Positions 6,333 to 63,450 of a DNA stretch of 64,000 nt are shown piece by piece. Numbering within the stretch: position 1 is the stretch's first letter; the number at the start of each line of letters is the position of its first letter. This DNA comes from Acidimicrobiales bacterium (GTDB lineage Bacteria; Actinomycetota; Acidimicrobiia; Acidimicrobiales; Aldehydirespiratoraceae), in the NCBI GenBank assembly GCA_965116865.1, contig OZ220727.1:1156798-1220797 (forward strand), given 5' to 3'. The translations under genes and the position numbers were made by a program. The notes under the pieces were generated by a model, which saw only the letters and a program-made list of their open reading frames with translations, was not told where the DNA came from and did not search any database.

Positions 6333-6383
6333 GCATAGACTCCTTGTGGCAGGTGGGGCGGATGTCAACCGACCATCCTATAA

Positions 6384-9922: not shown

Positions 9923-10264
9923 CCTGGAACGGACCTCAGAGCAAACGCAGACAGGCGAGAGTCCCAGCCCCATTCGCCGGTCACGCGCACCCTGCCCGCT
10001 GGAACGGACCTCAGAGCAAACGCAGACAGGCGAGAGTCCCAGCCCCATTCGCCGGTCACGCGCACCCTGCCCGCTGGAACGGACCTCAGAGCAAACGCAG
10101 ACAGGCGAGAGTCCCAGCCCCATTCGCCGGTCACGCGCACCCTGCCCGCTGGAACGGACCTCAGAGCAAACGCAGACAGGCGAGAGTCCCAGCCCCATTC
10201 GCCGGTCACGCGCACCCTGCCCGCTGGAACGGACCTCAGAGCAAACGCAGACAGGCGAGAGTCC
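9923..10264. repeat. 75-bp tandem array, 4.5 copies
   Basis: The segment ggaacggacctcagagc starts at 9926, 10001, 10076, 10151 and 10226. The last unit runs directly into dispersed-repeat copy 2. Confidence 0.95.
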
Positions 10265-20110: not shown

Positions 20111-21209
20111 GCTCGGCCGTCCCGCGGTCGCCGGCGCCGGCTACGGTGCGGCGCTCGCCGATCTCCCACCGGATCCGATAGTTGAGGAGCACGGCCACCG
20201 CCAGCGCTGCGAGAAGGATCAACGCCTGCAGGATCACCGAGATCGACGACTCCACACCGAGCGTCTGGATCGACTGGCCGCCGACCTGCACAGCGCCGAA
20301 CACGCAGGCCACCACGGCCACGCCGGAGGGCCGCATCAGCGCGAGCGCGGCCACGATGATTCCCGCGTATCCGTAGCCGTTCGACAGGCCGGGAGACAGA
20401 CGGCTGGCCGTCCCGGTCAACTCCACCGCCCCGGCCAGTCCGGCGATGGCTCCGGACAGCAGCAGAGAGACCAAGATCTTGCGCTCCAAGGAGATCCCCG
20501 CATAGCGCGCCGTCGCCGCCGACGATCCAGCGACCCGGAGCTCGTACCCCCAGGCGGTGCGCGCCACCGCCAGCCAGAACACGATCAGCAGCCCCGCCGC
20601 CATCAGCACACCGACATGCGCCCGACCGAACAGCACCGGCAAGGACGACTGGTCGGGCAGTTCGGCGATGACCGCGAACCCGAACGAGTCGGGATCCTTC
20701 CAAGGCCCCACCTCGAGCCATTCGACGATCCGGATCGACACCTCCACCAGCATCAGGGTGGTGATGATCTCGTTCACGTTCAGGTACGCACGGGCCAGCG
20801 CCGGCCCGACGGCGAGAACCAGTCCCCCCAGCGCGCCGGCGGCGACCATCACCACGATCAGCGGCGGCCCGGCGAGGTCCTCAGCCACTAGGGCGACGGC
20901 GGTGGCCAGCGTGGCGCCGGCCATCATCTGACCCTCCGCTCCGATGTTCCAGAGCCCCATCGACCCCGCCACCGCCACCGCCAGCCCGGTCAACGCCAGC
21001 GGGGTGGCCCTCACCAGGGTGCGCGACAGCGAGTCGGTCCCGCCGAGAGAGGAGTCCAGCATCCGCTCGTACACGGTGATCGGGGAATGGCCCGAAGCCG
21101 CCAGCAGGACCGCGCCCACCACGAGGGCCGCTCCGATCCCGACCAGGAAGGCGACGCCCTGCGCAGCCGGCACCACGCGCTCGCGCCGCTGGAGCACCGG
21201 AAGGATCAT
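20103..21209 (-). CDS. ABC transporter permease (BMP/nucleoside-type system)
   Basis: Polytopic ORF. The likely start is ATG 21209 (MILPVLQRRERVV). The upstream 53 codons of the track ORF are repeat read-through. Confidence 0.8.
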   Translation of the reverse strand: MILPVLQRRERVVPAAQGVAFLVGIGAALVVGAVLLAASGHSPITVYERMLDSSLGGTDSLSRTLVRATPLALTGLAVAVAGSMGLWNIGAEGQMMAGATLATAVALVAEDLAGPPLIVVMVAAGALGGLVLAVGPALARAYLNVNEIITTLMLVEVSIRIVEWLEVGPWKDPDSFGFAVIAELPDQSSLPVLFGRAHVGVLMAAGLLIVFWLAVARTAWGYELRVAGSSAATARYAGISLERKILVSLLLSGAIAGLAGAVELTGTASRLSPGLSNGYGYAGIIVAALALMRPSGVAVVACVFGAVQVGGQSIQTLGVESSISVILQALILLAALAVAVLLNYRIRWEIGERRTVAGAGDRGTAERV

Positions 21210-21368
21210 GGCCCCACCCGCACGGCGGCCCCGCGGCCGCGGAATGGTCCCGCAACTGCCAATGGGATCATGAGACGCACCCGCACGGCGGCCCCGCGGC
21301 CGCGGAATGGTCCCGCAACTGCCAATGGGATCATGAGACGCACCCGCACGGCGGCCCCGCGGCCGCAT
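21201..21368. repeat. 63-bp tandem array (2.4 copies) between the ATPase stop and the permease start
   Basis: Units start with acccgcacgg at 21216, 21279 and 21342. Each unit ends gggatcatgagacgc, mimicking the permease start region ggaaggatcatg. Confidence 0.9.
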
Positions 21369-23084: not shown

Positions 23085-24497
23085 TCAGGGTGCGGCGTTC
23101 CCCACGACGCCCTCGACGAACCAGCTCATGCCCAGCATCGAGCCGTCGTCCATCGTCTCGCCGGCGGCGACCATCTCTTTGCCGTCCTGGTCGTTGATCG
23201 GGCCGGTGAACACGTCCCACGATCCGCTGACGATCTCCTCCGTTCTCGACGCGATGAGGTCGGCCGTGGCGCTGGGAACATCGTCCGCCAAAGGCGCCAG
23301 GCCGACTATGCCGTCGTCCATGCCGCCCCAGTATGCGCCGGACTTGTAGCTGCCGTCGGCCACAGCTTCGATAGTGGCCGCATAGCGGGGACCCCAGTTC
23401 CAGACGGGGGCGGTGATCCATGCTTCGGGGGCGAACAGGCTCATGTCGGAGTTGTAGGCCACCCAGCGGGCGCCCGCGTCCTGCGCTGCCGTCCCTGCCG
23501 CGGTGGAGTCCTGGTGCATAGCGATCACGTCGGCACCCGCCTCGAGGAGCGCCTTGGCTGTGTCGCCCTCGATCGTGGGATCGAACCAGGTGAAAGTCCA
23601 GTTGACATGGACCTGAGCGTCCGGGTTGGTGTCGCGAACGCCCAGCGTGAACGCGTTGATGCCCCTGATCACCTCAGGGATCGGGAACGCGGCCACGTAG
23701 CCGATGTTGCCCGTCTGGGTCATGGCGCCGGCCGCCAGACCCGAGAGGTAGCGGGGCTGGTACATGCGTCCGAAGTAGTTGCCGAAGTTGGTGTCGTTCA
23801 TCTTGTACCCGCTGGCGTGCTCGAACACGACTCCGGGGTACTCGCCGGCCAGTTCCTCCATCGCGTCCATGTAGCCGAACGACGTGCCGAAGATCACGTC
23901 GGCGCCGTCGTTGTCGATGAAGTCGATGGCGAACGCCTTGAAGTCCTCGGCGTTCTCCGGGACGCTCTCCACGAACAGGGTGGCGGCGCCGGTGTGCTCC
24001 TCGGCGTACTGCCGGCCCTGGTCGTGAGCCCAGTTCCAGCCTGCGTCTCCGACCGGCCCGACGAGCACGAAGGCCGCCGTGATGTCCGAGGCGTCGTCCA
24101 TAGAACCGTCGTCCATGGAACCGTCGTCCATGGAACCGTCGTCCATAGAACCGTCGTCCATAGACCCGTCGTCCATAGACCCGTCGTCCATAGAACCGTC
24201 GTCCATAGACCCGTCGTCCATGGAACCGTCGTCCATGGAACCGTCGTCCATGGAACCGTCGTCCATGGAACCGTCGTCCATGGAACCGTCGTCAGACCCG
24301 TCGTCCATGGAACCGTCGTCGGCGTCGGCCGTCTGCTCGTCGACCGTCGACTCCTCGTCTGTGGCAGGATCAACGGCGTCGTCGTCGCCGCCGCAGGCCG
24401 CGGCGAACAGAGCGAGCGCGGCCAGCGCGGCTACGAGCGTCCAGATCGTCCGGCCACCGCTGGACCGTGATCTACGGCATCGATTGAATTTAAGCAT
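23085..24497 (-). CDS. BMP-family (Med/PnrA-like) ABC substrate-binding lipoprotein with (DDGSM)n linker
   Basis: Lipobox LFAAACGG. The mature domain ITAAFVLVGPVGDAGWNWAHDQG is typical of the basic membrane protein family. Confidence 0.8.
   Translation of the reverse strand: MLKFNRCRRSRSSGGRTIWTLVAALAALALFAAACGGDDDAVDPATDEESTVDEQTADADDGSMDDGSDDGSMDDGSMDDGSMDDGSMDDGSMDDGSMDDGSMDDGSMDDGSMDDGSMDDGSMDDGSMDDGSMDDASDITAAFVLVGPVGDAGWNWAHDQGRQYAEEHTGAATLFVESVPENAEDFKAFAIDFIDNDGADVIFGTSFGYMDAMEELAGEYPGVVFEHASGYKMNDTNFGNYFGRMYQPRYLSGLAAGAMTQTGNIGYVAAFPIPEVIRGINAFTLGVRDTNPDAQVHVNWTFTWFDPTIEGDTAKALLEAGADVIAMHQDSTAAGTAAQDAGARWVAYNSDMSLFAPEAWITAPVWNWGPRYAATIEAVADGSYKSGAYWGGMDDGIVGLAPLADDVPSATADLIASRTEEIVSGSWDVFTGPINDQDGKEMVAAGETMDDGSMLGMSWFVEGVVGNAAP
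24093..24318. repeat. coding 15-bp repeat encoding (DDGSM)n, about 14 copies
   Basis: Units of the form gtcgtccat(g/a)ga(a/c)cc are repeated in tandem. Confidence 0.9.
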
Positions 24498-24769
24498 CTT
24501 GATCCCTCCAAGAAACGCGGATTCTCCGTTGGCACGCCCAGAACCGGCCCGTGCCGGAAGTGAACTCTAGTACGAAGCGCTCGCCAGCGCCACGCCCCGA
24601 GCAGCCGGGCGAGCCGCGGCGCGGGCGCTGATGCCCTCCCACCGATCCGGAACCGACGCTCAGAACGGGGCGCCGAGGCGCGGACGCCGGGCTCGGAGGC
24701 TGATCCGAATCGTGGAACACGGCCCGGCAGGCATGGATCCAAGGCTCGGGATCGCTACACTTCCGCCGC

Positions 24770-32154: not shown

Positions 32155-34188
32155 TCAGGCGACTGCGAAGAGCCGGTTCCCGGCGGCGGGTCGGTGGTGT
32201 CCGCTTGTCGGCGGCGGCGCCGGCGGCGGGTCGGGTGCGTGTGCTGGTCCGTGGCGGGTCTGTTCGGGTGGGTGCAGGGTGTGGTTGCCGTCGGGGTTTT
32301 TGCGGATGCGCCAGTTGTGGTGGTGGATCTTCTGGTGGCAGTCCCAGCAGACGGGGGTCATGTTGTCGAGTTTGGTGGATCCGCCCTGAGCGACGGGTTT
32401 GATGTGGTGGATCTGGCACAGCGCGGGGTGCGCCGCGCAGTGGAAGCATCCGCCGTGGCGGGCCAGCAAGATCTGGCGCTGGGACTCGGTGGCGGTGCGG
32501 ACCGAGTGCGTCCGCCAGATCGGCTTGCCGTCGCGGTCGTACACCAGGCCGGTCAGTCTGGCGTTGCACGAGAGCTCCTCCAGCACAGCCCGCGGCAGCC
32601 GGGTGCCGTCGGGCAACTCCGCGACGAGCCTGCCAGTGGCACCGTCGACATGGGCGACCACACAGATGTCCGCTATCGGCCGGCCACCACCCCCGACACT
32701 GCGGCCGGAGCCGTCTGCTCGGCTGTTGCCGGGACCGTCTGCTCGGCCGCTGGTGTCGTTGTTGCGGGAGCCGCCTGCTCGGCCGCTGTCGTTGTTGCGG
32801 GAGCCGCTGTCGTTGTTGCGGGAGCCGCCTGCTCGGCCGCTGTCGTTGTTGCGGGAGCCGCTGTCGTTGTTGCGGGAGCCGCCTGCTCGGCCGCTGGTGT
32901 CGTTGTTGCGGGAGCCGCCTGCTCGGCCGCTGTCGTTGTTGCGGGAGCCGCTGTCGTTGTTGCGGGAGCCGCCTGCTCGGCCGCTGGTGTCGTTGTTGCG
33001 GGAGCCGCTGTCGTTGTTGCGGGAGCCGCCTGCTCGGCCGCTGTCGTTGTTGCGGGAGCCGCTGTCGTTGTTGCGGGAGCCGCCTGCTCGGCCGCTGGTG
33101 TCGTTGTTGCGGGAGCCGCCTGCTCGGCCGCTGTCGTTGTTGCGGGAGCCGCTGTCGTTGTTGCGGGAGCCGCCTGCTCGGCCGCTGGTGTCGTTGTTGC
33201 GGGAGCCGCCTGCTCGGCCGCTGTCGTTGTTGCGGGAGCCGCTGTCGTTGTTGCGGGAGCCGCCTGCTCGGCCGCTGGTGTCGTTGTTGCGGGAGCCGCT
33301 GTCGTTGTTGCGGGAGCCGCCTGCTCGGCCGCTGGTGTCGTTGTTGCGGGAGCCGCCTGCTCGGCCGCTGGTGTCGTTGTTGCGGGAGCCGCTGTCGTTG
33401 TTGCGGGAGCCGTTGTTGTGGGGTTTGTCTGTTGGGGTGTTGGTGGTGGTGAGGGCGTCGAGGGCGTCGGCCATGCATTGACCGAAATTGCGGCGGCCGG
33501 TTCCGTCGGCGGGGGCTTTCTTGTCGGCGCTGTGCATGCGAGCGGCTTGCGAGCGCAGCCGGTTGGCGACGCGTCTGCCGGTCACCGGGTCGAGCTCGCC
33601 GCGGAGATGGACCATCCCGTCGTCGCCGTCCCAGACACGAACACAGCGCCGCGCCCGCGAACGGCGATGCTGGGACTCCCCGTCGTCGCCGTCGCGGTCG
33701 ACCACCCACCGGCGAGCCTCTCGGGCGAACTGCTCGGGACGCATCGACACAGCCTTCGCCAACAGCTCCCCGTCGCCGTCGACAGCGCTGGCGCCGGCCG
33801 TCTCGGAAGCTTCGGCCAGCCGCCGCGCGTTCGCCGCGGACACCCGCCCCGACTCGACCGCATCACGCGCCGCGGGCGCCTCCCGCAACGCCTCGGCCGT
33901 CTTTAGGTGGCTGCGGGCCTCGCGCCGCGACAACCCGGCCGAACCCGCCAGCACCTCAGCGCCGCCGTCGCCGTGACGCTCACGGCCCGCCACCGCCGCC
34001 GCAGCCGACACCTGCGCAGCCGACAGCGCCGCCATCGCCGACCTCGACACCGCCAGCATCTCACGCAACTCCGAACACGACGCCGCGCCCGCGCCCACCA
34101 GCTCCAGCATCTCGGAGGCAGCGGCCTCGGCCCGACGAGCAGCTTCGATCAACATGCACACAGCATCCCACAGGGCTATGACATCCAC
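32155..34188 (-). CDS. DUF222/HNH endonuclease (REP13E12-type) with about 230-aa internal tandem-repeat expansion
   Basis: The N-terminal region resembles the mycobacterial 13E12 repeat family. The C-terminal HNH segment is CFHCAAHPALCQIHHIKPVAQGGSTKLDNMTPVCWDCHQKIHH. The middle is (GSRNNDSGSRNNDTSGRAGG)n. Confidence 0.8.
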   Translation of the reverse strand: MDVIALWDAVCMLIEAARRAEAAASEMLELVGAGAASCSELREMLAVSRSAMAALSAAQVSAAAAVAGRERHGDGGAEVLAGSAGLSRREARSHLKTAEALREAPAARDAVESGRVSAANARRLAEASETAGASAVDGDGELLAKAVSMRPEQFAREARRWVVDRDGDDGESQHRRSRARRCVRVWDGDDGMVHLRGELDPVTGRRVANRLRSQAARMHSADKKAPADGTGRRNFGQCMADALDALTTTNTPTDKPHNNGSRNNDSGSRNNDTSGRAGGSRNNDTSGRAGGSRNNDSGSRNNDTSGRAGGSRNNDSGSRNNDSGRAGGSRNNDTSGRAGGSRNNDSGSRNNDSGRAGGSRNNDTSGRAGGSRNNDSGSRNNDSGRAGGSRNNDSGSRNNDTSGRAGGSRNNDSGSRNNDSGRAGGSRNNDTSGRAGGSRNNDSGSRNNDSGRAGGSRNNDSGSRNNDSGRAGGSRNNDTSGRADGPGNSRADGSGRSVGGGGRPIADICVVAHVDGATGRLVAELPDGTRLPRAVLEELSCNARLTGLVYDRDGKPIWRTHSVRTATESQRQILLARHGGCFHCAAHPALCQIHHIKPVAQGGSTKLDNMTPVCWDCHQKIHHHNWRIRKNPDGNHTLHPPEQTRHGPAHAPDPPPAPPPTSGHHRPAAGNRLFAVA
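32710..33412. repeat. coding compound tandem repeat (21- and 39-bp sub-units)
   Basis: Alternating gccgctgtcgttgttgcgggagcc and gcctgctcggccgctggtgtcgttgttgcgggagcc blocks span about 700 bp. Confidence 0.9.
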
Positions 34189-34595
34189 CCCCCACAGCCC
34201 CCATCCTCACGCATTTCTCGATACTCCTCCACGCGAAAACTCCCACCAACCACACGATCCCGCGGATCCAGCGCCGCCGTCGCCGTGACGCTCACGGCCC
34301 GCCACCGCCGCCGCAGCCGACACCTGCGCAGCCGACAGCGCCGCCATCGCCGACCTCGACACCACCAACATCTCACGCAACTCCGAACACGACGCCGCGC
34401 CCGCGCCCACCAGCTCCAGCATCTCGGAGGCAGCGGCCTCGGCCCGACGAGCGGCTTCGATCAACATGCACACAGCATCCCACAGGGGTATGACATCCAC
34501 CCCCCACAGCCCCCATCCTCACGCATTTCTCGATACTCCTCCACGCGGAACTCCCACCAACCACGCGATCCCGCGGATCTAGCGCCGCCGTCGGT
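33957..34595. repeat. 311/312-bp tandem duplication covering the 5' end and upstream region of the HNH gene
   Basis: The segment cagcgccgccgtcgccgtgacgctcacgg starts at 33957 and 34269, with a third partial start at 34580. By eye the copies are about 97% identical. Confidence 0.9.
34207..34500 (-). pseudogene. duplicated N-terminal fragment of the DUF222/HNH gene
   Basis: MDVIPLWDAVCMLIEAARRAEAAASEMLELVGAGAASCSELREMLVVSRSAMAALSAAQVSAAAAVAGRERHGDGG is nearly identical to residues 1-76 of the 32155..34188 product. It then diverges and stops. Confidence 0.8.
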
Positions 34596-36765: not shown

Positions 36766-37026
36766 TACCGGCCGAGGCTAGTCAGGGGACCTCCGTCGAC
36801 AGCGTCGTGGTGTTCCCATACGGTGCCGAGTTCGAGGCACCGGCCGAAGCTGGTCAGAGGACCTCCGTCGACAGCGTCGTGGTGTTCCCATACGGTGCCG
36901 AGTTCGAGGCACCGGCCGAAGCTGGTCAGAGGACCTCCGTCGACAGCGTCGTGGTGTTCCCATACGGTGCCGAGTTCGAGGCACCGGCCGAAGCTGGTCA
37001 GGGGACCTCCGTCGACAGCGTCGTGC
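36766..37026. repeat. 72-bp tandem array (3.6 copies)
   Basis: The segment gacctccgtcgacagcgtcgtg starts at 36788, 36860, 36932 and 37004. Confidence 0.95.
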
Positions 37027-38392: not shown

Positions 38393-38467
38393 GTGCGGCC
38401 CCCTTGTTCTCTCCGGCACGGAACCGATCTGGGCATCGTCGCGCACCGACCGGATCCGTCTCTTCTA

Positions 38468-38819
38468 GCCGCGGCCGACGCACAACTGGGCGATCCCCCG
38501 CCGACCCAGCGTCGAGGCACCGACCACCCTCGGAATCCTCCTCAAGCCGCGGCCGACACACAACTGGGCGATCCCCCGCCGACCCAGCGTCGAGGCACCG
38601 ACCACCCTCGGAATCCTCCTCAAGCCGCGGCCGACACACAACTGGGCGATCCCCCGCCGACCCAGCGTCGAGGCACCGACCACCCTCGGAATCCTCCTCA
38701 AGCCGCGGCCGACACACAACTGGGCGATCCCCCGCCGACCCAGCGTCGAGGCACCGACCACCCTCGGAATCCTCCTCAAGCCGCGGCCGACACACAACTG
38801 GGCGATCCCCCGCCGACCC
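38468..38819. repeat. 78-bp tandem array (4.5 copies) in a divergent intergenic region
   Basis: The segment gccgcggccgac starts at 38468, 38546, 38624, 38702 and 38780. Confidence 0.95.
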
Positions 38820-44004: not shown

Positions 44005-44550
44005 GGAAGACCCCCGCGTGGGCGGCGCCTCAGACGGTCCACCTCCTCGCAGACCCGGCGCTTGGGGAAGACCCCCGCGTGGGCGGCGCCTCACCCCCGG
44101 ATCCGTCGCAGCGCCTCTGTCGCGTTCATCGGCAAAGCGGTCCGCACCCGCGTGGGCGGCCCTTCACCCCCGGATCCGTCGCAGCGCCTCTGTCGCGTTC
44201 ATCGGCAAAGCGGTCCGCACCCGCGTGGGCGGCCCTTCACCCCCGGATCCGTCGCAGCGCCTCTGTCGCGTTCATCGGCAAAGCGGTCCGCACCCGCGTG
44301 GGCGGCCCTTCACCCCCGGATCCGTCGCAGCGCCTCTGTCGCGTTCATCGGCAAAGCGGTCCGCACCCGCGTGGGCGGCCCTTCACCCCCGGATCCGTCG
44401 CAGCGCCTCTGTCGCGTTCATCGGCAAAGCGGTCCGCACCCGCGTGGGCGGCGCCTCACTCCCGGATCCGTCGCAGCGCCTCTGTCGCGTTCATCGGCAA
44501 AGCGGTCCGTACCCGCGTGGGCGGCCCTTCACCCCCGGATCCGTCGCAGC
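44005..44550. repeat. tandem array, 8 X copies (first interval 61, then 75, then 72 bp x5), seeded on the HIT gene stop
   Basis: The segment acccccgcgtgggcgg / acccgcgtgggcgg starts at 44010, 44071, 44146, 44218, 44290, 44362, 44434 and 44506. The unit contains ccttcacccccggatccgtcgcagc, which is the last 6 codons plus the TGA of the HIT gene. Confidence 0.95.
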
Positions 44551-47188: not shown

Positions 47189-47464
47189 GAGCCGCTCCAA
47201 GGGGGCCGAGCCGCCCCAAGGAGGTCTCGTGCGGACGACTCCCTGCAGCCGCCGACGCCGGAGCCTCACCGTGCGCATCGCCCGCAACCGGAGAGGTCTC
47301 GTGCGGACGACTCCCTGCAGCCGCCGACGCCGAGATCTGGCAGCGGCGGCGCTGGTGCCCCAAGGAGGTCCCGTGCGGACGACTCCCTGCAGCCGCCGAC
47401 GCCGAGAGCTGGCAGCGGCGGCGCTGGTGCCCCAAGGAGGTCTCGTGCGGACGACTCCCTGCAG
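47189..47464. repeat. repeat-spacer-like array, period 72 bp (X 40 bp, Y 32 bp), in the thrS/fabI divergent region
   Basis: X (gaggtctcgtgcggacgactccctgcagccgccgacgccg) occurs at 47221, 47293 and 47365, with a partial copy at 47437. Y1 at 47261-47292 differs from Y2 and Y3 (47333, 47405), which differ from each other by 1 nt. Confidence 0.9.
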
Positions 47465-47582
47465 TGCTGTCCGGGGCTGATCCGTGGCCGGCGTGCTCCC
47501 TGATCGTCGCGACGCCCGAGAAGACCCCCGCGCCCCGGGCCGCGTCGTGGAACGGCACGTTCTCAAGGTACCGTTGGCGGCT

Positions 47583-48350
47583 GTGGGCATCCTCGACGGC
47601 AAGCGCATCGTCGTCACCGGAGTCCTGACCGATGCCTCGCTCGCCTACGGCGCGGCCGCGCTGGCACTGGCCGAGGGCGCCGAGATCGTTTTGACCGGAG
47701 CCGGCCGGGCCATGCGCCTCACCCAGCGCACCGCCCGCAAGCTCGGCGACGGCATCGACGTGGTGGAGTTCGACGCTACCGAGCCGTCCCACGCCGACGC
47801 CCTGCGCGAGCACCTCGCCGGCAGCTGGGGGCAGGTGGACGGCGCGCTCCACGCCATCGGGTTCGCTCCCGAGGTGTGCCTGGGCGGCACGTTCATGGAA
47901 GCCAGCTGGGAAGACGTCAAGGTGGCGCTGGAGATCTCCACCTACTCGCTGAAGATGCTCGCCGACGCGGTCGCTCCTCTGATGCCGGCCGGCGGCTCGA
48001 TCCTGGGCCTGGACTTCGACGCCACCCGTGCCTGGCCGGGCTACGACTGGATGGGCGTGGCCAAGGCCGGCCTCGAGTCCACCTGCCGGTACCTGGCCCG
48101 CTACCTCGGACCGAAGGGGATCCGGGTGAACCTGGTCTCCGCCGGTCCGATGAGGACCATGGCCGCACGCTCCATCCCCGGCTTCTCCGACTTCGAGGAC
48201 GCCTGGGCGATGCGGGCGCCGCTCGGTTGGAGCGTCACCGACCCGACCGGCGTGTCGCGCACGATCGTGGCCATGCTGAGCGACTGGCTGCCGGCCACCA
48301 CCGGATCGGTCGTGCATGCGGACGGCGGCTACCACGCCGTCGGCGCCTGA
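47583..48350 (+). CDS. fabI: enoyl-[acyl-carrier-protein] reductase (NADH), FabI/InhA type
   Basis: GTG 47583 gives (M)GILDGKRIVVTGVLTDASLAYG. Later segments include GYDWMGVAKAGLES and VNLVSAGPMRT. Confidence 0.85.
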   Translation: MGILDGKRIVVTGVLTDASLAYGAAALALAEGAEIVLTGAGRAMRLTQRTARKLGDGIDVVEFDATEPSHADALREHLAGSWGQVDGALHAIGFAPEVCLGGTFMEASWEDVKVALEISTYSLKMLADAVAPLMPAGGSILGLDFDATRAWPGYDWMGVAKAGLESTCRYLARYLGPKGIRVNLVSAGPMRTMAARSIPGFSDFEDAWAMRAPLGWSVTDPTGVSRTIVAMLSDWLPATTGSVVHADGGYHAVGA

Positions 48351-48353
48351 GCA

Positions 48354-48546
48354 TCCCGAGCACCGGATCCGCCGAGCGTCGGACAATCTCGGCTTGCCGC
48401 CTCCGGCTCGCCCCATGGTGCGAACTCGGCAACGGAGCGGGCTCCAGAGCGTCCCGAGCACCGGATCCGCCGCGCGTCGGACAATCTCGGCTTGCCGCCT
48501 CCGGCTCGCCCCATGGTGCGAACTCGGCAACGGAGCGGGCTCCAGG
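48354..48546. repeat. 98-bp tandem duplication (about 2 copies) between convergent genes
   Basis: The segment tcccgagcaccggatccgcc occurs at 48354 and 48452. Confidence 0.9.
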
Positions 48547-48595: not shown

Positions 48596-49654
48596 TCACG
48601 GGCCGCTGTCGTCGGTCTCGTCGAAGATGTCGCCCACCAGGCCCTCGAGGATGTCCTCCAGGGTGACCACGCCCAGCATGCGCCCGGTGTCGCTTCGCAC
48701 CAGAGCCATGTGAACTCGCGACCGCCGCATGTCGAGCAGGAGGTCGCGACCGGCCATATCAGGGCCCACCACCCGCATGCGGCGCACCAACTCCAACGGC
48801 AGCGGATCGTCGCAGGCCTCCTCCGGCATGCGGATCAGGTCCTTGGCGTGGACGAACCCCAGCACGTCGTCGGGTTCCGACCCCCACATCGGGATCCGGG
48901 TGTGTCCGGTGGCGGCCACCACATCCTCGAGTCGGGCCGCGGACGCCCCCCGGGGCACGGACACCAGCCGGTCGGCGGGCACCATCACCGATCCGACCGA
49001 CTGGGCACGGAACTCCAGCGCGCCCGACAGCAACTCGTGCTCGGTGGGCTCGATCACGCCCTCCTCGCGGGCGCCCGCGAGCAGCGTCCGGAACTCGTTG
49101 ATGGTGAGCGCGGTGTTGATCTCGTCCACCGGATTGATGCCCATCAGGCGCACGATGCGGTTCCCCACGAAGTTGAGGGACGCGATGACCGGTCTGAACA
49201 CTGCACCGTAGATGCGCATGGCCGGCGCCAGCAGCCGTGCCGACGCCTCCGGCTCGGCAATGGCCATGTTCTTGGGGACCATCTCGCCCACCACCACATG
49301 CAGCGTCGTCACCACGAACAGCGCCACCGCGAAGGAGATCGTGTGCAGGACGCCGGACGGAACCTCCACGACCCTCTCGATGACCGGCTCGATGAGGTGG
49401 GCGATGGCCGGCTCGGCCACATAGCCCAGCACCAGCGAGGCCATGGTGATGCCGAACTGGGCTCCAGCGAGCTGGGTCTGCAGGTCGCGCACCGCTGCCA
49501 GGGCGATGCCGCTGCGCCTGTCGCCGTCGGACGCGGCCGCCTCCAAGCGAACAGCACGGGCCGCGACCAGCGCGAACTCGGCCGCCACGAAAAAGGCGTT
49601 GGCCCCGAGCATCACCACCGCCACAACCAAGGCTACGACCGTCGCCGTGCTCAC
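48596..49654 (-). CDS. CNNM/CorC/TlyC family protein (DUF21 + CBS pair)
   Basis: GTG 49654 gives VSTATVVALVVAVVMLGANAFFVAAEFALV (DUF21), followed by CBS-pair-like regions. The track ORF start at 49849 lies inside the repeat. Confidence 0.8.
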   Translation of the reverse strand: MSTATVVALVVAVVMLGANAFFVAAEFALVAARAVRLEAAASDGDRRSGIALAAVRDLQTQLAGAQFGITMASLVLGYVAEPAIAHLIEPVIERVVEVPSGVLHTISFAVALFVVTTLHVVVGEMVPKNMAIAEPEASARLLAPAMRIYGAVFRPVIASLNFVGNRIVRLMGINPVDEINTALTINEFRTLLAGAREEGVIEPTEHELLSGALEFRAQSVGSVMVPADRLVSVPRGASAARLEDVVAATGHTRIPMWGSEPDDVLGFVHAKDLIRMPEEACDDPLPLELVRRMRVVGPDMAGRDLLLDMRRSRVHMALVRSDTGRMLGVVTLEDILEGLVGDIFDETDDSGP

Positions 49655-49876
49655 CGCGACACCCCCGAACCGACCAAGCACCGACCCCGCCGAAAAAAAC
49701 AGCCCACAACCGTCGCCGCGCTCACCGCGACACCCCCGAACCGACCAAGCACCGACCCCGCCGAAAAAACAGCCCACGACCGTCGCCGTGCTCACCGCGA
49801 CACCCCCGAACCGACCAAGCACCGACCCCGCCGAAAAAACAGCCCGCAACCGTCGCCGTGCTCACCGCGACACCCC
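49636..49876. repeat. 70/71-bp tandem array (3.4 copies) seeded on a GTGA stop/start junction
   Basis: The segment g(t/c)gctcaccgcgacaccccc occurs at 49647, 49718, 49788 and 49858. The A7 tract at 49693-49699 contrasts with A6 tracts in the other units. Confidence 0.95.
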
Positions 49877-51235
49877 CGGTGCTGCCGGGCCGCACCCGTC
49901 CCTTCGCCCCAGCGCGGGCGCGGCTACGGATACGACAGGCGCCGCCACCCGGACAGCGGCGATCCTCAAACGGTCGACAGCCACCACCTCGAGGCGCCAG
50001 CCGTCCACGGTGACGACCTCGCCGGGCACCGGTATGTGGCCCAGCCTGTCCAGCACCAGCCCGGCCAGCGTCTCGTAGCCGCCTTCGGGCATGGCGAAGC
50101 CGGTAGCGTCGAACACCTCGTCGGTGTGCAGCGACGCGGACAGCACCGTCGAGCCCCGGGACTCGGACCGGGTGCGCTCAGGGGTGGACGAGTCGTGCTC
50201 GTCGTCGATCTCACCGACGATCTCCTCAAGCACGTCCTCGAGGGTGATGATCCCCGCCGTGCCGCCGTGCTCGTCGACCACCACGGCCAGCAGACCCGCG
50301 CCGGCGCGCAGGTCGTGCAGGATGTCGTTGAGATCGCGGGACTCGGGCACGGCAAGCACCGGCTGCATCAACTGCGACACCGGCGTGGAATGCCGTTGCG
50401 GCCCGGGCACGGCGAACAGCGATTTCACATGGACCACGCCGGCCACGTTGTCGAGATGGCCCGCCGTGACCGGAAACCGGGAATGGCCGGTGCCGACGGC
50501 CAGTTCGGCGAGGTAAGCCACCGAGGCGTCGGCCTCGATGGCGACCACCTCCACCCTGGGCACCATGGCGTCGTCGGCCTGCTTGTCGGCCAGGCGGATC
50601 GACCGGGTGAGCAGCCACACCTCGTCCTCGTCGAGCATCCCCCCCTGCCCCGATGAAACGAAGAGGTGTTCGAGTTCGTCGCGATCAGGCACCGTGTCTA
50701 TCTCCTCGCGCGGCTCCATGCCGAGTCGGCGCACCATCCAGTTGGCCGCGCCGTTGAGGAAAGCCACCACAGGCCGGGCCAGCACGCCGTACACGGTGGT
50801 CGGAACGGCCACCGCCACCGCTGTCCCGAAGGGCTTCGTGGTGGCCACCGCCTTGGGGACGAGCTCGCCCATCATCATCTGCACGATCGTGGCCAGCATC
50901 AGCGCGACCGCGACGGACACGCCCGAGGGCGTGTTGCCCCCGAACAGCGCCTCGACTCCGGGCGCAATCATCGGCGCCAGGGCCGGTTCGACCATGAAGC
51001 CGAGAAGCAACGACGAGACCGTGATGCCGATCTGCGCGCCCGACAGGTGAAACGACAGCCGGGCCACCAAGCGCTGGACCATCCGGGCCCGGCGGTCTCC
51101 GGCCCCTGCCCGTTCGTCCACTCGGGTGCGGTCCACCGCCACCAGCGCGAACTCCATGGCGACGAAGAAGGCGTTGGCTGCCATCAGCGCGAGAGCGGCC
51201 AAGAGCCACAGCGCGGTCTCTATCGGTCCTCCCAA
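49862..51235 (-). CDS. CNNM/CorC/TlyC family protein (DUF21 + CBS pair + CorC_HlyC)
   Basis: N-terminus LLAALALMAANAFFVAMEFALVAVDR, then CBS-like segments and the C-terminal transporter-associated domain. 457 aa. Confidence 0.85.
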   Translation of the reverse strand: MGGPIETALWLLAALALMAANAFFVAMEFALVAVDRTRVDERAGAGDRRARMVQRLVARLSFHLSGAQIGITVSSLLLGFMVEPALAPMIAPGVEALFGGNTPSGVSVAVALMLATIVQMMMGELVPKAVATTKPFGTAVAVAVPTTVYGVLARPVVAFLNGAANWMVRRLGMEPREEIDTVPDRDELEHLFVSSGQGGMLDEDEVWLLTRSIRLADKQADDAMVPRVEVVAIEADASVAYLAELAVGTGHSRFPVTAGHLDNVAGVVHVKSLFAVPGPQRHSTPVSQLMQPVLAVPESRDLNDILHDLRAGAGLLAVVVDEHGGTAGIITLEDVLEEIVGEIDDEHDSSTPERTRSESRGSTVLSASLHTDEVFDATGFAMPEGGYETLAGLVLDRLGHIPVPGEVVTVDGWRLEVVAVDRLRIAAVRVAAPVVSVAAPALGRRDGCGPAAPGVSR

Positions 51236-52708: not shown

Positions 52709-53110
52709 TTGCATCTCGCTATTCTCAGTGCTAAGGTGGAGGATGTGCAGACGCTCTCATTCGCAGACCTGGCGCCCGTGCTCGCCGCCGTCCTCGGACC
52801 GATACTGCTGTTAGCGGTCACGATCATGCGCTACCAGCACGTCGACAGCACCAAGACCCGCGACCTCATCGACCGCAACCGCGAAGCCAGCGAACAAGCC
52901 CACAAAGAAACCCGCGACCTCATCGACCGCAACCGCGAAGCCAGCGAACAAGCCCACAAAGAAACCCGCGACCTCATCGACAAGAACTATCGGGAGATGG
53001 TCAGCGGCCTCGGACGCGCCGATGCGCGACTGAGCCGCATAGAGGGCACCCTGGGTATTCTGTCGGCGACTGCTCACAACGTGGACGACAGCGGCACCGA
53101 GGCAGCCTGA
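52709..53110 (+). CDS. small membrane-anchored protein with 18-aa tandem repeat
   Basis: One TM segment, LAPVLAAVLGPILLLAVTIM. TRDLIDRNREASEQAHKE occurs 2.3 times, encoded by a 54-bp repeat at 52856-52981. AAGGTGGAGG lies upstream of the alternative GTG starts at 52736 and 52745. Confidence 0.55.
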   Translation: MHLAILSAKVEDVQTLSFADLAPVLAAVLGPILLLAVTIMRYQHVDSTKTRDLIDRNREASEQAHKETRDLIDRNREASEQAHKETRDLIDKNYREMVSGLGRADARLSRIEGTLGILSATAHNVDDSGTEAA

Positions 53111-53365: not shown

Positions 53366-54028
53366 CTAGACCGCGGCCAGGCCGGGACCGCCGACCGCGC
53401 CGCAGGGGCGGATGGCCAGCAGCACGCCCTCGGCCACCTCCACCGTCGGCGGCGCGGCAACGATCACGTTGGAGGTGCCCCGTCCGGAAGTCGGGCTGAG
53501 CGCCTCCTCGACCAGCGGGAACAGCAGACCAGAGGTGGACGCGACCAGCGCGGGCCCGCCGACAGCCAGCAGCGACACGACCTCCCCCACCTCGCCGCGG
53601 AGACGACGCAGTCCCCGCACCACAGTCACATGGGCCTCCCCCACCGTGGCCGACACCTCCAGCGAGGACCAGCGAGGCGAGGCCAGAACCGCCAGGCTGG
53701 CCATCGCCTGGTCGAGCCGCCCTCCGGTGGGGAGCAGCACATGCACCGCCGAGACCTGCCGCAGCGCCAGCGCCATGGCCAGCTCGAGGTCGGTGGCGTC
53801 CTTGTCGACAGGATGCGCGTCGACGGTGCTGCCGCAGCGCTCGGCCCAATCCAGCGCGGCCTCGCCGGCGGAGTCCAGGTCGCCCACCACGGCATCGACG
53901 CGCAACCGCCAGCGGCGGGCCGCGTCAAGCCCGCCGTCAGCTGCGATCACGAGGTCGGGAGATCCCGTCGCGGGCGCCTCGCCGTGCTGGTCGCCCGCCA
54001 CCAGCAACGCCCACGATCGACGTCTCAC
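53366..54028 (-). CDS. thiamine pyrophosphokinase
   Basis: VIAADGGLD ... VVGDLDS ... DKDATDLELA and a C-terminal thiamine-binding-like domain. The start is GTG 54028. Confidence 0.8.
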   Translation of the reverse strand: MRRRSWALLVAGDQHGEAPATGSPDLVIAADGGLDAARRWRLRVDAVVGDLDSAGEAALDWAERCGSTVDAHPVDKDATDLELAMALALRQVSAVHVLLPTGGRLDQAMASLAVLASPRWSSLEVSATVGEAHVTVVRGLRRLRGEVGEVVSLLAVGGPALVASTSGLLFPLVEEALSPTSGRGTSNVIVAAPPTVEVAEGVLLAIRPCGAVGGPGLAAV

Positions 54029-54046
54029 GATCGACGTCTCACGATC
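54013..54046. repeat. 14-bp tandem duplication (acgatcgacgtctc x2.4) covering the thiamine pyrophosphokinase start codon
   Basis: Units at 54013-54026 and 54027-54040, with a partial unit at 54041-54046. Confidence 0.9.
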
Positions 54047-55380: not shown

Positions 55381-55492
55381 GCCCGCGCAACAGAGACAAC
55401 GCCTGTGGTTGTCGCACCTTGAAGATCTCGTCGGCGGTCATGCGCCGCACGGAGCCCGCGCAACATAGACAACGCCTGTGGTTGTCGCACCT
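55381..55492. repeat. X-Y-X junction repeat, period 73 bp, seeded on the stop of the 55491..56912 gene
   Basis: The segment gcccgcgcaaca(g/t)agacaacgcctgtggttgtcgcacct occurs at 55381-55419 and 55454-55492. Each X carries the hairpin gacaac-gcctgtg-gttgtc. Confidence 0.9.
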
Positions 55493-60677: not shown

Positions 60678-60708
60678 GCCGCGAGTGTTGCACGCCCAGC
60701 CACGGCTG

Positions 60709-60885
60709 GCAGAACAAAGCACGCGCGCGCACGCCATGCACGACCGGTGCGCGTGTTTGGACCGAACACGCGCACCGGTGGCAGAACAAAGCGCGCGCAC
60801 GCCATGCACGACCCCGGTGGCCCGGCCCCGGTGGACGGCCCGCAGCCGCGCAGAACAAAGCACGCGCGCGCACGCCATGCACGAC
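60709..60885. repeat. repeat-spacer-like array (X 36/32/36 bp, two unrelated Y of 36 and 37 bp) in the murF/ddl divergent region
   Basis: X (gcagaacaaagc(ac)gcgcgc(gc)acgccatgcacgac) occurs at 60709, 60781 and 60850. Y1 (60745-60780) is a perfect 14-bp-stem hairpin. Y2 (60813-60849) is unrelated to Y1. Confidence 0.9.
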
Positions 60886-60935
60886 GCTGCCATTTCGGCG
60901 CCGGCGCTAGCGTCGTCGGCGTGGAGGACCGCAGG

Positions 60936-62520: not shown

Positions 62521-63279
62521 TCACCCAGCCTGACCCTCAGCCGCTCCGGGTTGGATGTCGAGGAGGGGGCCGAGCTCCCGGAGGCGGGCGCGTCGTATGC
62601 GGTAGTCGGGCACGGCCTGGGCGACCACAGCCCAGTATTCGGGCGTGTGGCCGCGGACGCGCAGGTGTGCGAGCTCGTGGGCGATCACGTAGTCGAGGAG
62701 GGCGGGCGGGGCCATGACGGCACGCCAGTTGAAGCGCAGCGTGCCGTCCGGGGCGCAGCTCGCCCAGCGGCGGCGCTGACCGCGGACGAGGACCGCTTTC
62801 GGCTGCGCGCCGAGGAGGCTCGCGATGCGCTCCACGCGCGGCGGGAGCTTCAGCGCGGCGCGGTCGCGGTACCACGCCTCGAATGCGGCCCGCACCTTCT
62901 CGAGCCGTTCCTCGCCTCGCAGAAAGCGGGGGACGCCGACGTCGAACTCCCAGTGGTGGAACCCGACCTCGACCCTGGCGCCGTCGATGGGATGCACGGT
63001 GAGGCGCACCGACCGGCCGAGATAGGGCAGGGACTCGCCGCTGACGAACCGGCGGGGCGGTGCGCACGCCGTGGCCGCGCCGTCGTGCCGGACGATCCAG
63101 CCGGCACGGCGACGCACAGTCTCCTCGACTTGCTCCGCAGGCGTGTCGACAGGCGCCGCCACCCTGACGACACCGGGCGCATCGACGGTGACCTCGATCG
63201 TCTTGCGCCGTCTCGGGCTGCGGACGACCTGGTACTCGATCCGGGCTTCGCCGAAGACGACCTCCCCGCGCTCTGTCAC
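62521..63279 (-). CDS. DUF45/YgjP-like (M48-type) zinc metallopeptidase
   Basis: The HELAHL zinc motif lies within LDYVIAHELAHLRVRGH. The real start is GTG 63279 (VTERGEVVFGEARIEYQVVRS). This gene type is a common companion of type I R-M systems. Confidence 0.8.
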   Translation of the reverse strand: MTERGEVVFGEARIEYQVVRSPRRRKTIEVTVDAPGVVRVAAPVDTPAEQVEETVRRRAGWIVRHDGAATACAPPRRFVSGESLPYLGRSVRLTVHPIDGARVEVGFHHWEFDVGVPRFLRGEERLEKVRAAFEAWYRDRAALKLPPRVERIASLLGAQPKAVLVRGQRRRWASCAPDGTLRFNWRAVMAPPALLDYVIAHELAHLRVRGHTPEYWAVVAQAVPDYRIRRARLRELGPLLDIQPGAAEGQAG

Positions 63280-63450
63280 ACGAGCCTCTTGCGGGCCATC
63301 TCCATGACCTTCGAGCACCGCGACGACGACGCCGTACAGGCCCGCGTCACACGAGCCTCTTGCGGGCCATCTCCATGACCTTCGAGCACCGCGACGACGA
63401 CGCCGTACAGGCCCGCGTCACACGAGCCTCTTGCGGGCCATCTCCATGAC
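63275..63450. repeat. 71-bp tandem array (X-Y-X-Y-X) seeded on the hsdR stop / DUF45 start GTGA junction
   Basis: X (gtcacacgagcctcttgcgggccatctccatgac) occurs at 63275, 63346 and 63417. Y (cttcgagcaccgcgacgacgacgccgtacaggcccgc) occurs twice. Confidence 0.95.

What the first reader, a model, noticed from the sequence alone, without database searches (positions are those of the whole stretch)
49636..49876. The array between the two CNNM paralogues propagates a GTGA stop/start junction, and an A6/A7 tract sets the frame
The upstream paralogue ends GVSR with TGA 49862-49864, overlapped by a GTG (GTGA). The same junction recurs at 49792, 49722 and 49651. The last recurrence is the real start of the downstream paralogue (GTG 49654, VSTATVVALVVAVVMLGANAFF).

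The unit nearest the downstream gene is 71 bp long, with an A7 tract at 49693-49699. It encodes a 24-codon mini-ORF running exactly from one GTGA to the next, so termination-reinitiation coupling can be relayed. The two distal units are 70 bp (A6) and shift frame. This creates the alternative 65-codon N-terminal extension seen in track ORF 48596..49849.

The layout matches the MIRU description of mini-ORFs overlapping flanking genes, and adds a homopolymer that could toggle coupling.
Basis: partly seen in the sequence, partly recalled or inferred. Interest (0 to 1): 0.7.

Follow-up and report, generated by a model that had tools for sequence, protein, structure and literature searches.

The report
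Stop/start-copying repeat between paralogous genes
A 70-71-bp tandem repeat sits at the 4-base stop/start overlap between two neighbouring CNNM-type transporter genes of a sponge-associated actinobacterium and copies that overlap four times, so ribosomes could still pass from one gene to the next; the layout resembles mycobacterial MIRUs, but the repeat is locus-specific, not a mobile family.

Summary
On the minus strand, three units (70, 70 and 71 bp; T6, T6, T7) lie between two CNNM paralogues, and GTGA recurs at 49865, 49795, 49725 and 49654.

With the 24-codon ORF that follows, the stop/start chain is unbroken.

About 29 related Acidimicrobiia loci carry a single ATGA/GTGA overlap here, so that is the ancestral state. 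Four other lineages grew their own arrays at this junction (20, 28/29, 35 and 50 bp), all with intact relays. Two more junction arrays lie in this window.

The units are unrelated between loci, so this is MIRU-like in layout but not a MIRU-type dispersed family.

An independent sponge-metagenome contig (99% identical) reproduces T6/T7, so the tract difference is not a sequencing error and shows no sign of toggling. That contig has only two units (141 nt), which fuses the first GTG in frame with gene B. This is either real copy-number variation or short-read collapse.

Evidence that the relay is selected is suggestive only, because codon-phase microhomology predicts much of the same period bias. 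The origin of the 40-nt core of the unit is unexplained.

The parts
49862..51235 (-). Upstream paralogue (gene A), 457 aa, CNNM + CBS + CorC_HlyC; ends GVSR, TGA 49864-49862
   Evidence: orthologues lie directly upstream of gene B in all relatives
48596..49654 (-). Downstream paralogue (gene B), 352 aa, CNNM + CBS; start GTG 49654-49652 within GTGA #4
   Evidence: The source genome's own call (P0001, 338 aa) starts 14 codons later; the JGI call (P0121, 399 aa) starts 47 codons earlier
49638..49878 (-). Tandem array with structure J-C-J-C-J-C-J. J is the 30-nt junction module CGGGGGTGTCGCG-GTGA-GCACGGCGACGGT (4 copies). C is a 39/40-nt core GTGGGCTG-T6/7-CGGCGGGGTCGGTGCTTGGTCGGTT (3 copies)
   Evidence: family D8
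49796..49865 (-). Unit 1, 70 bp, T6 at 49839-49834
49726..49795 (-). Unit 2, 70 bp, T6 at 49769-49764; absent from the independent contig L158
49655..49725 (-). Unit 3, 71 bp, T7 at 49699-49693
49722..49865 (-). Mini-ORF 1: GTG 49865 (overlaps the stop of gene A) to TGA 49724-49722, 47 codons, VSTATVAGCFFGGVGAWSVRGCRGEHGDGRGLFFRRGRCLVGSGVSR
49651..49725 (-). Mini-ORF 2: GTG 49725 to TGA 49653-49651 (overlaps the start of gene B), 24 codons, VSAATVVGCFFRRGRCLVGSGVSR
49655..49795 (-). 47-codon in-frame extension of gene B from GTG 49795 (GTGA #2), preceded by the same SD-like motif as the true start. In the two-unit allele the equivalent extension starts at the GTG that overlaps gene A's stop
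49662..49666 (-). SD-like GGGGG, 7 nt upstream of GTG 49654 and repeated in every unit; relatives have GGAGG at the same distance
   Evidence: read from the sequence
49775..49790 (-). Weak terminator-like hairpin CACGGCGACGGTCGTG followed by GGCTGTTTTT; a second copy lies at 49705-49720
   Evidence: 2 found, 1.5 expected in shuffles, so not enriched

Best explanation
This is a locus-specific minisatellite that grew in place out of the 4-nt stop/start overlap (RTGA) of an old, translationally coupled pair of CNNM paralogues in a sponge-associated Acidimicrobiia genome. Each unit re-creates the whole junction module: the last 13 nt of gene A with an SD-like GGGGG, then GTGA, then the first 13 nt of gene B. 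It also carries a 40-nt core of unknown origin. The array puts 211 nt between the two genes but leaves both intact. In the three-unit allele, a ribosome finishing gene A at TGA 49864-62 can restart at the overlapping GTG, translate a 47-codon throw-away ORF, stop at GTGA #3, restart, translate a 24-codon ORF, and stop on the start codon of gene B. This is a termination-reinitiation relay that keeps B coupled to A. Shown: the anatomy, the intact frame chain, the single-overlap ancestor, the repeated independent origin at this junction, and the reality of T6/T7. Inferred: that ribosomes actually use the relay, and that arrays persist here because their lengths keep it (or an in-frame fusion) intact.
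For: Anatomy and frame chain. Single RTGA overlap in about 29 related loci, with GGAGG 7 nt upstream. Independent arrays at the same junction, all with unbroken GTG-to-TGA chains: L002 (20 bp x3.2), L005 (steps of 38 and 29 nt), L009 (35 bp x2), L031 (50 bp x6.1). Their nearest relatives have single junctions. The same architecture occurs at two other co-directional junctions in this window. One is 63275-63450 (71 bp x2.5, GTGA x3, two 24-codon ORFs) between an HsdR-like C-terminal domain and a YgjP-like gene. The other is 21203-21366 (a 72-codon ORF from GTGA to ATGA) between an ABC ATPase and a permease. Non-junction arrays and dyads of the same window are 0 mod 3 in 9 of 12 cases and 2 mod 3 in 1 of 12, whereas the junction arrays have relay-competent lengths (Fisher p = 0.033 for two arrays, 0.009 for three). 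B's start region is poorly accessible in all lineages (unpaired probability 0.23 here, 0.29 +/- 0.07 in relatives), which fits a need for coupling. T6/T7 is reproduced in an independent assembly.
Against: No expression data exist. A neutral model predicts much of the period bias: in 29 unexpanded junctions, k-mer matches that would seed a junction-spanning duplication fall in the 2-mod-3 class 48% (k=3) to 83% (k=7) of the time. Five of five intact relays then has p = 0.025 to 0.39. Contig L158 (99% identical) has two units (141 nt, 0 mod 3), which gives no relay but an in-frame 47-aa extension of B; if real, the relay is dispensable. L017 and L024 have 46- and 178-nt non-repeat spacers, so the overlap is not obligatory in the clade. 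Every unit has its own SD-like motif, so B could be translated independently of A. The array does not mask B's start more than single junctions do.
Confidence: 0.55

Rival explanations
1. Neutral by-product. The genome makes tandem arrays at a very high rate. Only those that leave genes intact survive, and a duplication spanning a -4 junction does leave both genes intact. Period classes reflect codon-phase microhomology, gene B is translated from its own SD and GTG, and the mini-ORFs have no role.
For: Array density is about 27 per 100 kb in the window, against 5 in relatives and 3.3 in other taxa. The microhomology null gives 48-83% in the 2-mod-3 class. L002's 20-bp unit lies exactly between two CGGGC 5-mers of the ancestor-like L035 sequence. 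A two-unit allele without a relay exists. Spacers without overlap occur in L017 and L024. There is no extra RNA masking.
Against: The window's array is not a plain microhomology duplication. Its 40-nt core has no local source, so the codon-phase null does not obviously apply to it. Junction arrays differ in period class from the same genome's other arrays. The overlap itself is conserved in about 29 of about 38 loci, which points to selection on coupling.
Confidence: 0.3
2. MIRU-type mobile element: a dispersed repeat family that inserts at start codons and brings its own coupled ORF.
For: Unit size is 70-71 bp, the position is intercistronic, the orientation matches the genes, and the ORFs overlap the flanking stop and start at -4 spacing. 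This matches how MIRUs are described (PMC12548453; PMC3184786, citing Supply et al. 1997). The core is absent from all relatives, as at an empty versus a filled site.
Against: The unit core is absent elsewhere in the window. Ten long-period arrays in the window share no sequence (1 of 55 pairs above the 95th percentile of the null). Arrays at the same junction in relatives have different units built from local sequence. The duplicated target is 30 nt, not 4. The host is Acidimicrobiia, not Mycobacterium.
Confidence: 0.03
3. Phase-variable switch: slippage of the A6/A7 tract, or of unit number, toggles coupling or the N-terminus of gene B as a contingency locus.
For: Tract length decides whether a unit is relay-competent. 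Two assemblies differ in unit number, 3 versus 2, which switches between a relay and an in-frame 47-aa extension.
Against: T6 and T7 are identical in the two assemblies. Tracts of 6-7 T are short for phase variation (general knowledge). The unit-number difference may be short-read collapse, since that contig also ends inside the neighbouring 98-bp array.
Confidence: 0.07
4. Transcriptional attenuator: each unit carries a weak hairpin plus a T run that partly terminates transcription between A and B, so unit number sets the A:B ratio.
For: Two terminator-like sites lie on the gene strand inside units 2 and 3. The array RNA folds more stably than shuffles (z = -4.3).
Against: The count is not enriched over shuffles (2 against 1.5). 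The stems have only 6 pairs including a G-T pair, with a 5-nt gap before the T run. Unit 1 lacks the site. The arrays in relatives have no such motif.
Confidence: 0.05

Closest known systems
MIRU (mycobacterial interspersed repetitive units; Supply et al. 1997, as summarised in PMC12548453 and PMC3184786)
   Same: Tandem units of 40-100 bp lie between co-directional genes of an operon, in the same orientation. Each unit carries an ORF whose start and stop overlap those of the flanking genes at -4 spacing. Unit lengths of 77 and 53 bp (PMC4213456) are 2 mod 3, like 71 bp here.
   Different: MIRUs are a dispersed family of about 40-50 loci with a shared consensus, flanked by 4-nt direct repeats, thought to be mobile, and found in Mycobacterium. 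Here the unit is unique to the locus, the duplicated target is 30 nt, other arrays in the genome are unrelated, and the host is Acidimicrobiia.
NTGA (-4) overlapping gene pairs coupled by termination-reinitiation (Huber et al. 2019, 2023, cited in PMC12548453)
   Same: The ancestral junction is exactly this motif with an SD inside the upstream gene. The array repeats the motif.
   Different: The classical case has one overlap. Here there are four in series, with two intervening throw-away ORFs.
Locus-specific bacterial VNTRs / minisatellites
   Same: High-identity head-to-tail copies, locus-specific sequence, and a probable copy-number difference between two assemblies.
   Different: The unit is anchored on a stop/start overlap, and its length class preserves a reading-frame relay.
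Borg tandem repeats (PMC9879509)
   Same: Arrays are abundant, perfect or near-perfect, arise independently, and are unique to each locus. [quoted passage not shown]
   Different: Borg tandem repeats are A-rich, occur in archaeal extrachromosomal elements, and mostly have shorter units. No junction-relay property was described there.

Membership tests
MIRU | Units of 40-100 bp in tandem between co-directional genes, oriented with them | tested here: met
   70/70/71-bp units between two minus-strand CNNM genes
MIRU | Unit-borne ORFs whose start and stop codons overlap those of the flanking genes | tested here: met
   47- and 24-codon ORFs chained by GTGA
MIRU | Dispersed family: tens of loci per genome sharing a consensus | tested here: not met
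   The core is absent from the rest of the 64-kb window. The window's arrays are mutually unrelated. No match beyond the junction itself in about 1.1 Mb of related loci. The rest of the source genome could not be searched.
MIRU | Filled versus empty sites with tetranucleotide direct repeats (an insertion signature) | tested here: not met
   Empty sites exist in relatives, but the flanking direct repeat here is the 30-nt junction module
MIRU | Occurs in Mycobacterium | tested here: not met
   Closest relatives are Acidimicrobiales / Ca. Aldehydirespirator MAGs; an independent copy comes from a sponge metagenome
-4 overlap translational coupling | RTGA stop/start overlap with an SD inside the upstream gene | tested here: met
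   About 29 relatives have ATGA/GTGA with GGAGG 7 nt upstream; in the window it occurs four times with GGGGG
-4 overlap translational coupling | Downstream translation depends on upstream translation | not testable with these tools
   Needs a reporter assay or ribosome profiling
VNTR / minisatellite | Copy number varies between strains | tested here: inconclusive
   Window 3 units, L158 2 units at 99% flank identity; short-read collapse cannot be excluded
Homopolymer contingency locus | Tract length varies between closely related genomes | tested here: not met
   T6 (first unit) and T7 (last unit) are identical in the two assemblies; n = 2 only
CRISPR-like / off-target spacer integration | Repeat of fixed length, spacer-sized inserts of foreign origin | tested here: not met
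   J is 18-48 nt and C is 25-40 nt across arrays, and the cores are identical within an array. Three cores have no exact match in viral contigs (a weak test).
CNNM/CorC-HlyC transporters (flanking genes) | CNNM transmembrane domain plus a CBS pair, with or without CorC_HlyC | tested here: met
   Pfam: A E = 3e-40 / 4.8e-12 / 3.4e-20; B E = 8.4e-43 / 3.9e-09

The most novel reading that the evidence does not exclude
This Acidimicrobiia lineage has a distinctive repeat-forming process. It duplicates an 18-48-nt target around a 25-40-nt filler of unknown origin, with a total near 72 bp, and then amplifies the pair. This is the same unsolved flanking-partial-repeat geometry noted for Borg elements. 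The reading-frame geometry of the site filters which lengths survive: multiples of 3 elsewhere, 3n-1 at -4 gene junctions. On this reading, the junction arrays are natural experiments showing that termination-reinitiation relays through throw-away ORFs are selected.
Probability: 0.2. Interest if true: 0.7.

Novelty: new variant of a known kind. Interest (0 to 1): 0.42.

Why it matters
This shows that the MIRU design, in which intercistronic repeats carry their own stop/start overlaps, can arise without a mobile element. A -4 junction was simply duplicated, at least five separate times at one gene pair and three times within one 64-kb window. These loci form a set of natural variants: a single overlap, relays of 7 to 47 codons, an in-frame fusion, and plain spacers. 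That set could be used to test how far termination-reinitiation coupling can be stretched. On the practical side, the array misleads gene callers. The same gene B is annotated at 338 aa in one record and 399 aa in another, while the conserved length is 352 aa. The repeat geometry (period about 72 bp, cores of unknown origin) also points to an uncharacterised mutational process in a sponge-symbiont lineage.

Tried and rejected
1. MIRU-type dispersed family: rejected.
2. Derivation of the 40-nt core from the adjacent gene B start or gene A end: no significant similarity (P = 0.22 and 0.83, P = 0.10 and 0.93; Fisher combined over nine arrays 0.20).
3. A source for the cores elsewhere in the window, either strand: none above the shuffled level.
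4. Spacer-like foreign origin of the cores: three viral-contig scans found nothing, and J and C lengths are not fixed.
5. Known RNA family: none in 49300-50200 at E <= 1.
6. Special RNA masking of B's start by the array: not seen. The strong fold (z = -4.3) comes from pairing between copies of the imperfectly palindromic junction motif.
7. Promoter in the array: none found.
8. The metagenome scan for more arrays at this junction gave only three more close relatives, all with a single overlap.
9. Exact-protein look-ups of genes A and B under four start choices failed, and P0001's contig could not be fetched.
10. A hotspot test against other -4 junctions was underpowered, with only about 8 other junctions in the fetched loci.
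11. Over-long homologue calls (P0012, P0015, P0021) were checked for N-terminal arrays and turned out to be C-terminal extensions.
12. The generic chain scan also returns chance chains without repeats (L013, L016 and alternative-frame cases within gene A), so only TRF-supported arrays were counted.

Full report
**What is there.** The window is 69.5% G+C. On the minus strand, a 457-aa gene (49862-51235; CNNM, CBS and CorC_HlyC domains) is followed by a 352-aa paralogue (48596-49654; CNNM and CBS). Between them TRF reports an array at 49638-49878, period 70, 3.4 copies, 96% matches.

Reading the minus strand, GTGA occurs at 49865-62, 49795-92, 49725-22 and 49654-51. The units between them are 70, 70 and 71 bp. 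They differ by a T6/T6/T7 run (49839-34, 49769-64, 49699-93) and by three substitutions. The first TGA is the stop of the upstream gene and the last GTG is the start of the downstream gene. Every coordinate in the finding is correct.

GTG 49865 opens a 47-codon ORF that runs through both 70-bp units (140 is 2 mod 3) and stops at TGA 49724-22, inside GTGA #3. [quoted passage not shown] So the chain is unbroken: gene A stop, then a 47-codon ORF, then a 24-codon ORF, then gene B start.

GTGA #2 is skipped by this chain. Its GTG (49795) lies in frame with gene B, 47 codons upstream, and is preceded by the same GGGGG-N7 motif as the real start. The 65-codon extension from TTG 49849 is only the mechanical limit of that frame.

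**Organism and ancestral state.** The closest loci in the genome collection are Acidimicrobiales / "Candidatus Aldehydirespirator" and sponge-derived Acidimicrobiaceae MAGs, with at most 91% amino-acid identity. The family was named in PMC11706023. The paralogue pair is syntenic in all of them.

In about 26 of these loci, plus three metagenome contigs, the two genes overlap by exactly ATGA or GTGA, with GGAGG 7 nt upstream. Two loci (L017, L024) instead have non-repeat spacers of 46 and 178 nt. Homologue N-termini (MSTGTIVAL..., VSTTTIVAL...) confirm GTG 49654 as the conserved start.

**The junction has been expanded repeatedly.** Four other lineages carry their own arrays at this very junction:
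- L002: 20 bp x3.2
- L009: 35 bp x2
- L031: 50 bp x6.1
- L005: GTGA at 145, 155, 183 and 212, with effective steps of 38 and 29 nt

. Their units differ in length and boundaries and are plainly the end of gene A plus the start of gene B. The nearest relative of each has a single overlap, so these are independent events. In all four the GTG-to-TGA chain is unbroken.

**The same thing happens elsewhere in this window.** At 63275-63450, a 71-bp unit (2.5 copies, 100% identical, unrelated sequence) repeats GTGA three times. It lies between an HsdR-like C-terminal domain and a YgjP-like metallopeptidase gene, and gives two 24-codon relay ORFs. At 21203-21366 (units of 63 and 62 bp), a 72-codon ORF runs from the GTGA at the stop of an ABC ATPase to an ATGA at the likely start of the permease; that start was not verified. 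A 14-bp x2.5 repeat after the M23 peptidase gene (54012-54046) is a weaker case.

**Not a MIRU family member.** MIRUs are described as units of 40-100 bp present at about 40-50 dispersed loci. They are flanked by 4-nt direct repeats, thought to be mobile, and insert at start codons with an ORF coupled at -4 spacing (PMC3184786; PMC12548453).

Here the layout matches but the family criteria fail. The unit core occurs nowhere else in the window. The window's ten long-period arrays share no sequence, with 1 of 55 pairs above the 95th percentile of the null. Relatives use different units at the same site. The host is not a mycobacterium. It works like a MIRU but is not one.

**Is the relay selected?** At first sight, five of five lineages with periods that are 2 mod 3 looks decisive (p = 0.004 at one-third each). 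However, I tested a neutral rival. The two genes are strongly codon-periodic and B's frame is offset by -1, so short matches between the end of A and the start of B should favour distances that are 2 mod 3. In 29 unexpanded junctions this class holds 48% of candidate seeds at k = 3, 61% at k = 5 and 75-83% at k = 6-8. Five of five then has p = 0.025 to 0.39. L002's unit does lie exactly between two CGGGC pentamers of the ancestor-like sequence.

A second, internal control points the other way. Among 12 non-junction arrays and dyads of this window, 9 have periods that are 0 mod 3 and only 1 is 2 mod 3, whereas the junction arrays have relay-competent lengths (Fisher p = 0.033 for two arrays, 0.009 for three). 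Period class therefore tracks the reading-frame geometry of the site. Whether that comes from selection on translation or from a phase-aware mutational bias remains open.

B's start region is poorly accessible in every lineage: unpaired probability is 0.23 here and 0.29 +/- 0.07 at single junctions. That is compatible with a general need for coupling, but the array adds no extra masking.

**The A6/A7 tract and copy number.** The large protein collection holds the window's gene B as P0001. It is 100% identical but called at 338 aa, from the ATG at codon 15, on a 3.32-Mb contig. The same cluster holds a second member, P0121, at 399 aa.

P0121 sits on an independent 2,043-bp contig from JGI sponge metagenome 3300003175 (record SP3TswiDRAFT_1005732, locus L158), which is 99.1-99.6% identical to the window in the flanks. 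Its array consists of unit 1 (70 bp, T6) followed directly by unit 3 (71 bp, T7); unit 2 is missing. Two conclusions follow.

First, the T6/T7 difference is reproduced independently. It is not a sequencing error, and it shows no sign of toggling.

Second, with two units (141 nt, 0 mod 3) there is no mini-ORF relay. The GTG that overlaps gene A's stop is in frame with gene B, giving the 47-aa extension that JGI annotated. This is either genuine copy-number polymorphism or short-read collapse; the contig also ends inside the neighbouring 98-bp array. If real, it shows that the relay is not indispensable, and that unit number rather than the homopolymer is what switches the mode of coupling.

**An unexplained feature of the unit.** The window's array is not a plain duplication of the end of A plus the start of B. 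It is J-C-J-C-J-C-J. J is the 30-nt junction module present once in relatives. C is a 39/40-nt core containing the T run, and it is absent from every relative.

C has no significant similarity to the sequence just outside the array (P = 0.22 and 0.83; P = 0.10 on the B side). It has no source elsewhere in the window.

The same n + 0.5 geometry holds for eight of the ten long-period arrays of the window (fractional copy number 0.43-0.62; post-hoc binomial p = 4e-4). Unexpanded 1.5-copy dyads with the same spacing also exist: 55381/55454 (39 nt, spacing 73), 2595/2667 (41 nt, spacing 72), and 60701/60773/60842 (about 45 nt, three copies, with different fillers).

Periods cluster at 69-78 bp in this clade: 10 of 25 arrays with period of at least 30 fall in 70-78 bp, against 0 of 4 in twice as much DNA from other taxa. 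Array density is about 12-fold higher.

Across arrays J is 18-48 nt and C is 25-40 nt, so neither part has a fixed length. Three cores have no exact match in viral contigs. The Borg tandem-repeat study describes the same puzzle: flanking partial repeats, and an unexplained origin for the central regions (PMC9879509).

**Other checks.** There is no Rfam match and no promoter-like site. Two weak terminator-like hairpins followed by T runs lie inside units 2 and 3, not enriched over shuffles. The array RNA folds more stably than shuffles (z = -4.3) because neighbouring copies of the imperfectly palindromic junction motif GTCGCGGTGA|GCACGGCGAC pair with each other.

**Verdict.** It is incomplete about the frame logic, and it lacks support on the homopolymer toggle.

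The best reading is a home-grown, locus-specific minisatellite that copies a -4 stop/start junction and, in the three-unit form, preserves a termination-reinitiation relay. It is a new variant of a known kind. Interest is moderate, raised by the repeated independent origin at one junction and by the unexplained repeat geometry of about 72 bp in this lineage.

Noticed in passing
window 63275-63450 (-): A second junction array with the same architecture but unrelated sequence: 71 bp x2.5, 100% identical, GTGA at 63421, 63350 and 63279, and two 24-codon ORFs (VTRACTASSSRCSKVMEMARKRLV). It lies between a type I restriction HsdR-like C-terminal domain and a YgjP-like metallopeptidase gene.
   Followed up: partly
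window 21203-21366 (-): A 63/62-bp array between an ABC ATPase and a BPD_transp_2 permease. A 72-codon ORF runs from the GTGA at the ATPase stop (21424) to an ATGA at the putative permease start (MILPVLQRR). That start was not verified against homologues.
   Followed up: partly
window 54012-54046 (-): A 14-bp x2.5 repeat (GATCGTGAGACGTC) just after the M23 peptidase stop (GTGA at 54074) gives an 11- plus 5-codon chain into the thiamine pyrophosphokinase gene. It is short and could be chance.
   Followed up: partly
window 9924-10264, 36767-37025, 38460-38819, 44074-44550, 47215-47464, 52856-52981: Six further high-identity arrays (periods 75, 72, 78, 73, 72, 54) abut gene ends. All are mutually unrelated and all have n + about 0.5 copies (partial repeat at both ends, central core of unknown origin). 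Array density is about 27 per 100 kb.
   Followed up: partly
window 55381-55492; 2595-2707; 60701-60886: Unexpanded dyads and a triad with the same geometry: 39-45-nt direct repeats spaced 69-73 bp apart. The three copies at 60701-60886 (GCAGAACAAAGC.CGCGCGC..ACGCCATGCACGAC) are separated by different fillers and could instead be repeated regulatory sites.
   Followed up: partly
window-wide (12 non-junction arrays and dyads): Nine of 12 arrays that look intergenic have periods divisible by 3 (binomial p = 0.004), with no evident coding constraint. Several frames are open across them, so repeat-peptide ORFs cannot be excluded.
   Followed up: partly
window 48342-48545: A 98-bp x2.1 array lies in the convergent gap between the enoyl-ACP reductase-like gene (47484-48350) and gene B's stop. 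Relatives L015 and L021 have different 36- and 33-bp arrays in the same gap. The independent contig L158 ends inside this array.
   Followed up: partly
window 32754-33416 and 33957-34593: Complex nested repeats (21/54/57/90/201/291 bp, and 312 bp x2) lie inside a long GC3-rich ORF region (32155-34206 minus, or 32390-33481 plus), probably a repeat-rich protein.
   Followed up: no
window 24092-24320 and 5725-5858: In-frame short-period arrays inside genes: 15 bp x15.5 (CGTCGTCCATGGAAC) in ORF 23085-24566 (-), and 18 bp x7.3 in ORF 5181-6377 (-).
   Followed up: no
gene B annotation (P0001, P0121; window 48596-49795): The same gene is called at 338 aa in the source record (ATG at codon 15, losing half of the first transmembrane helix) and at 399 aa in the JGI contig. 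The conserved length in relatives is 352 aa, so the array misleads start prediction.
   Followed up: yes
homologues P0015, P0021, P0026, P0012: The C-terminal tails of gene B homologues carry their own short amino-acid repeats (GSGTH x2-3, ETD x3, Ala/Ser/Asp-rich tails). Both ends of this gene are repeat-prone in the clade.
   Followed up: no
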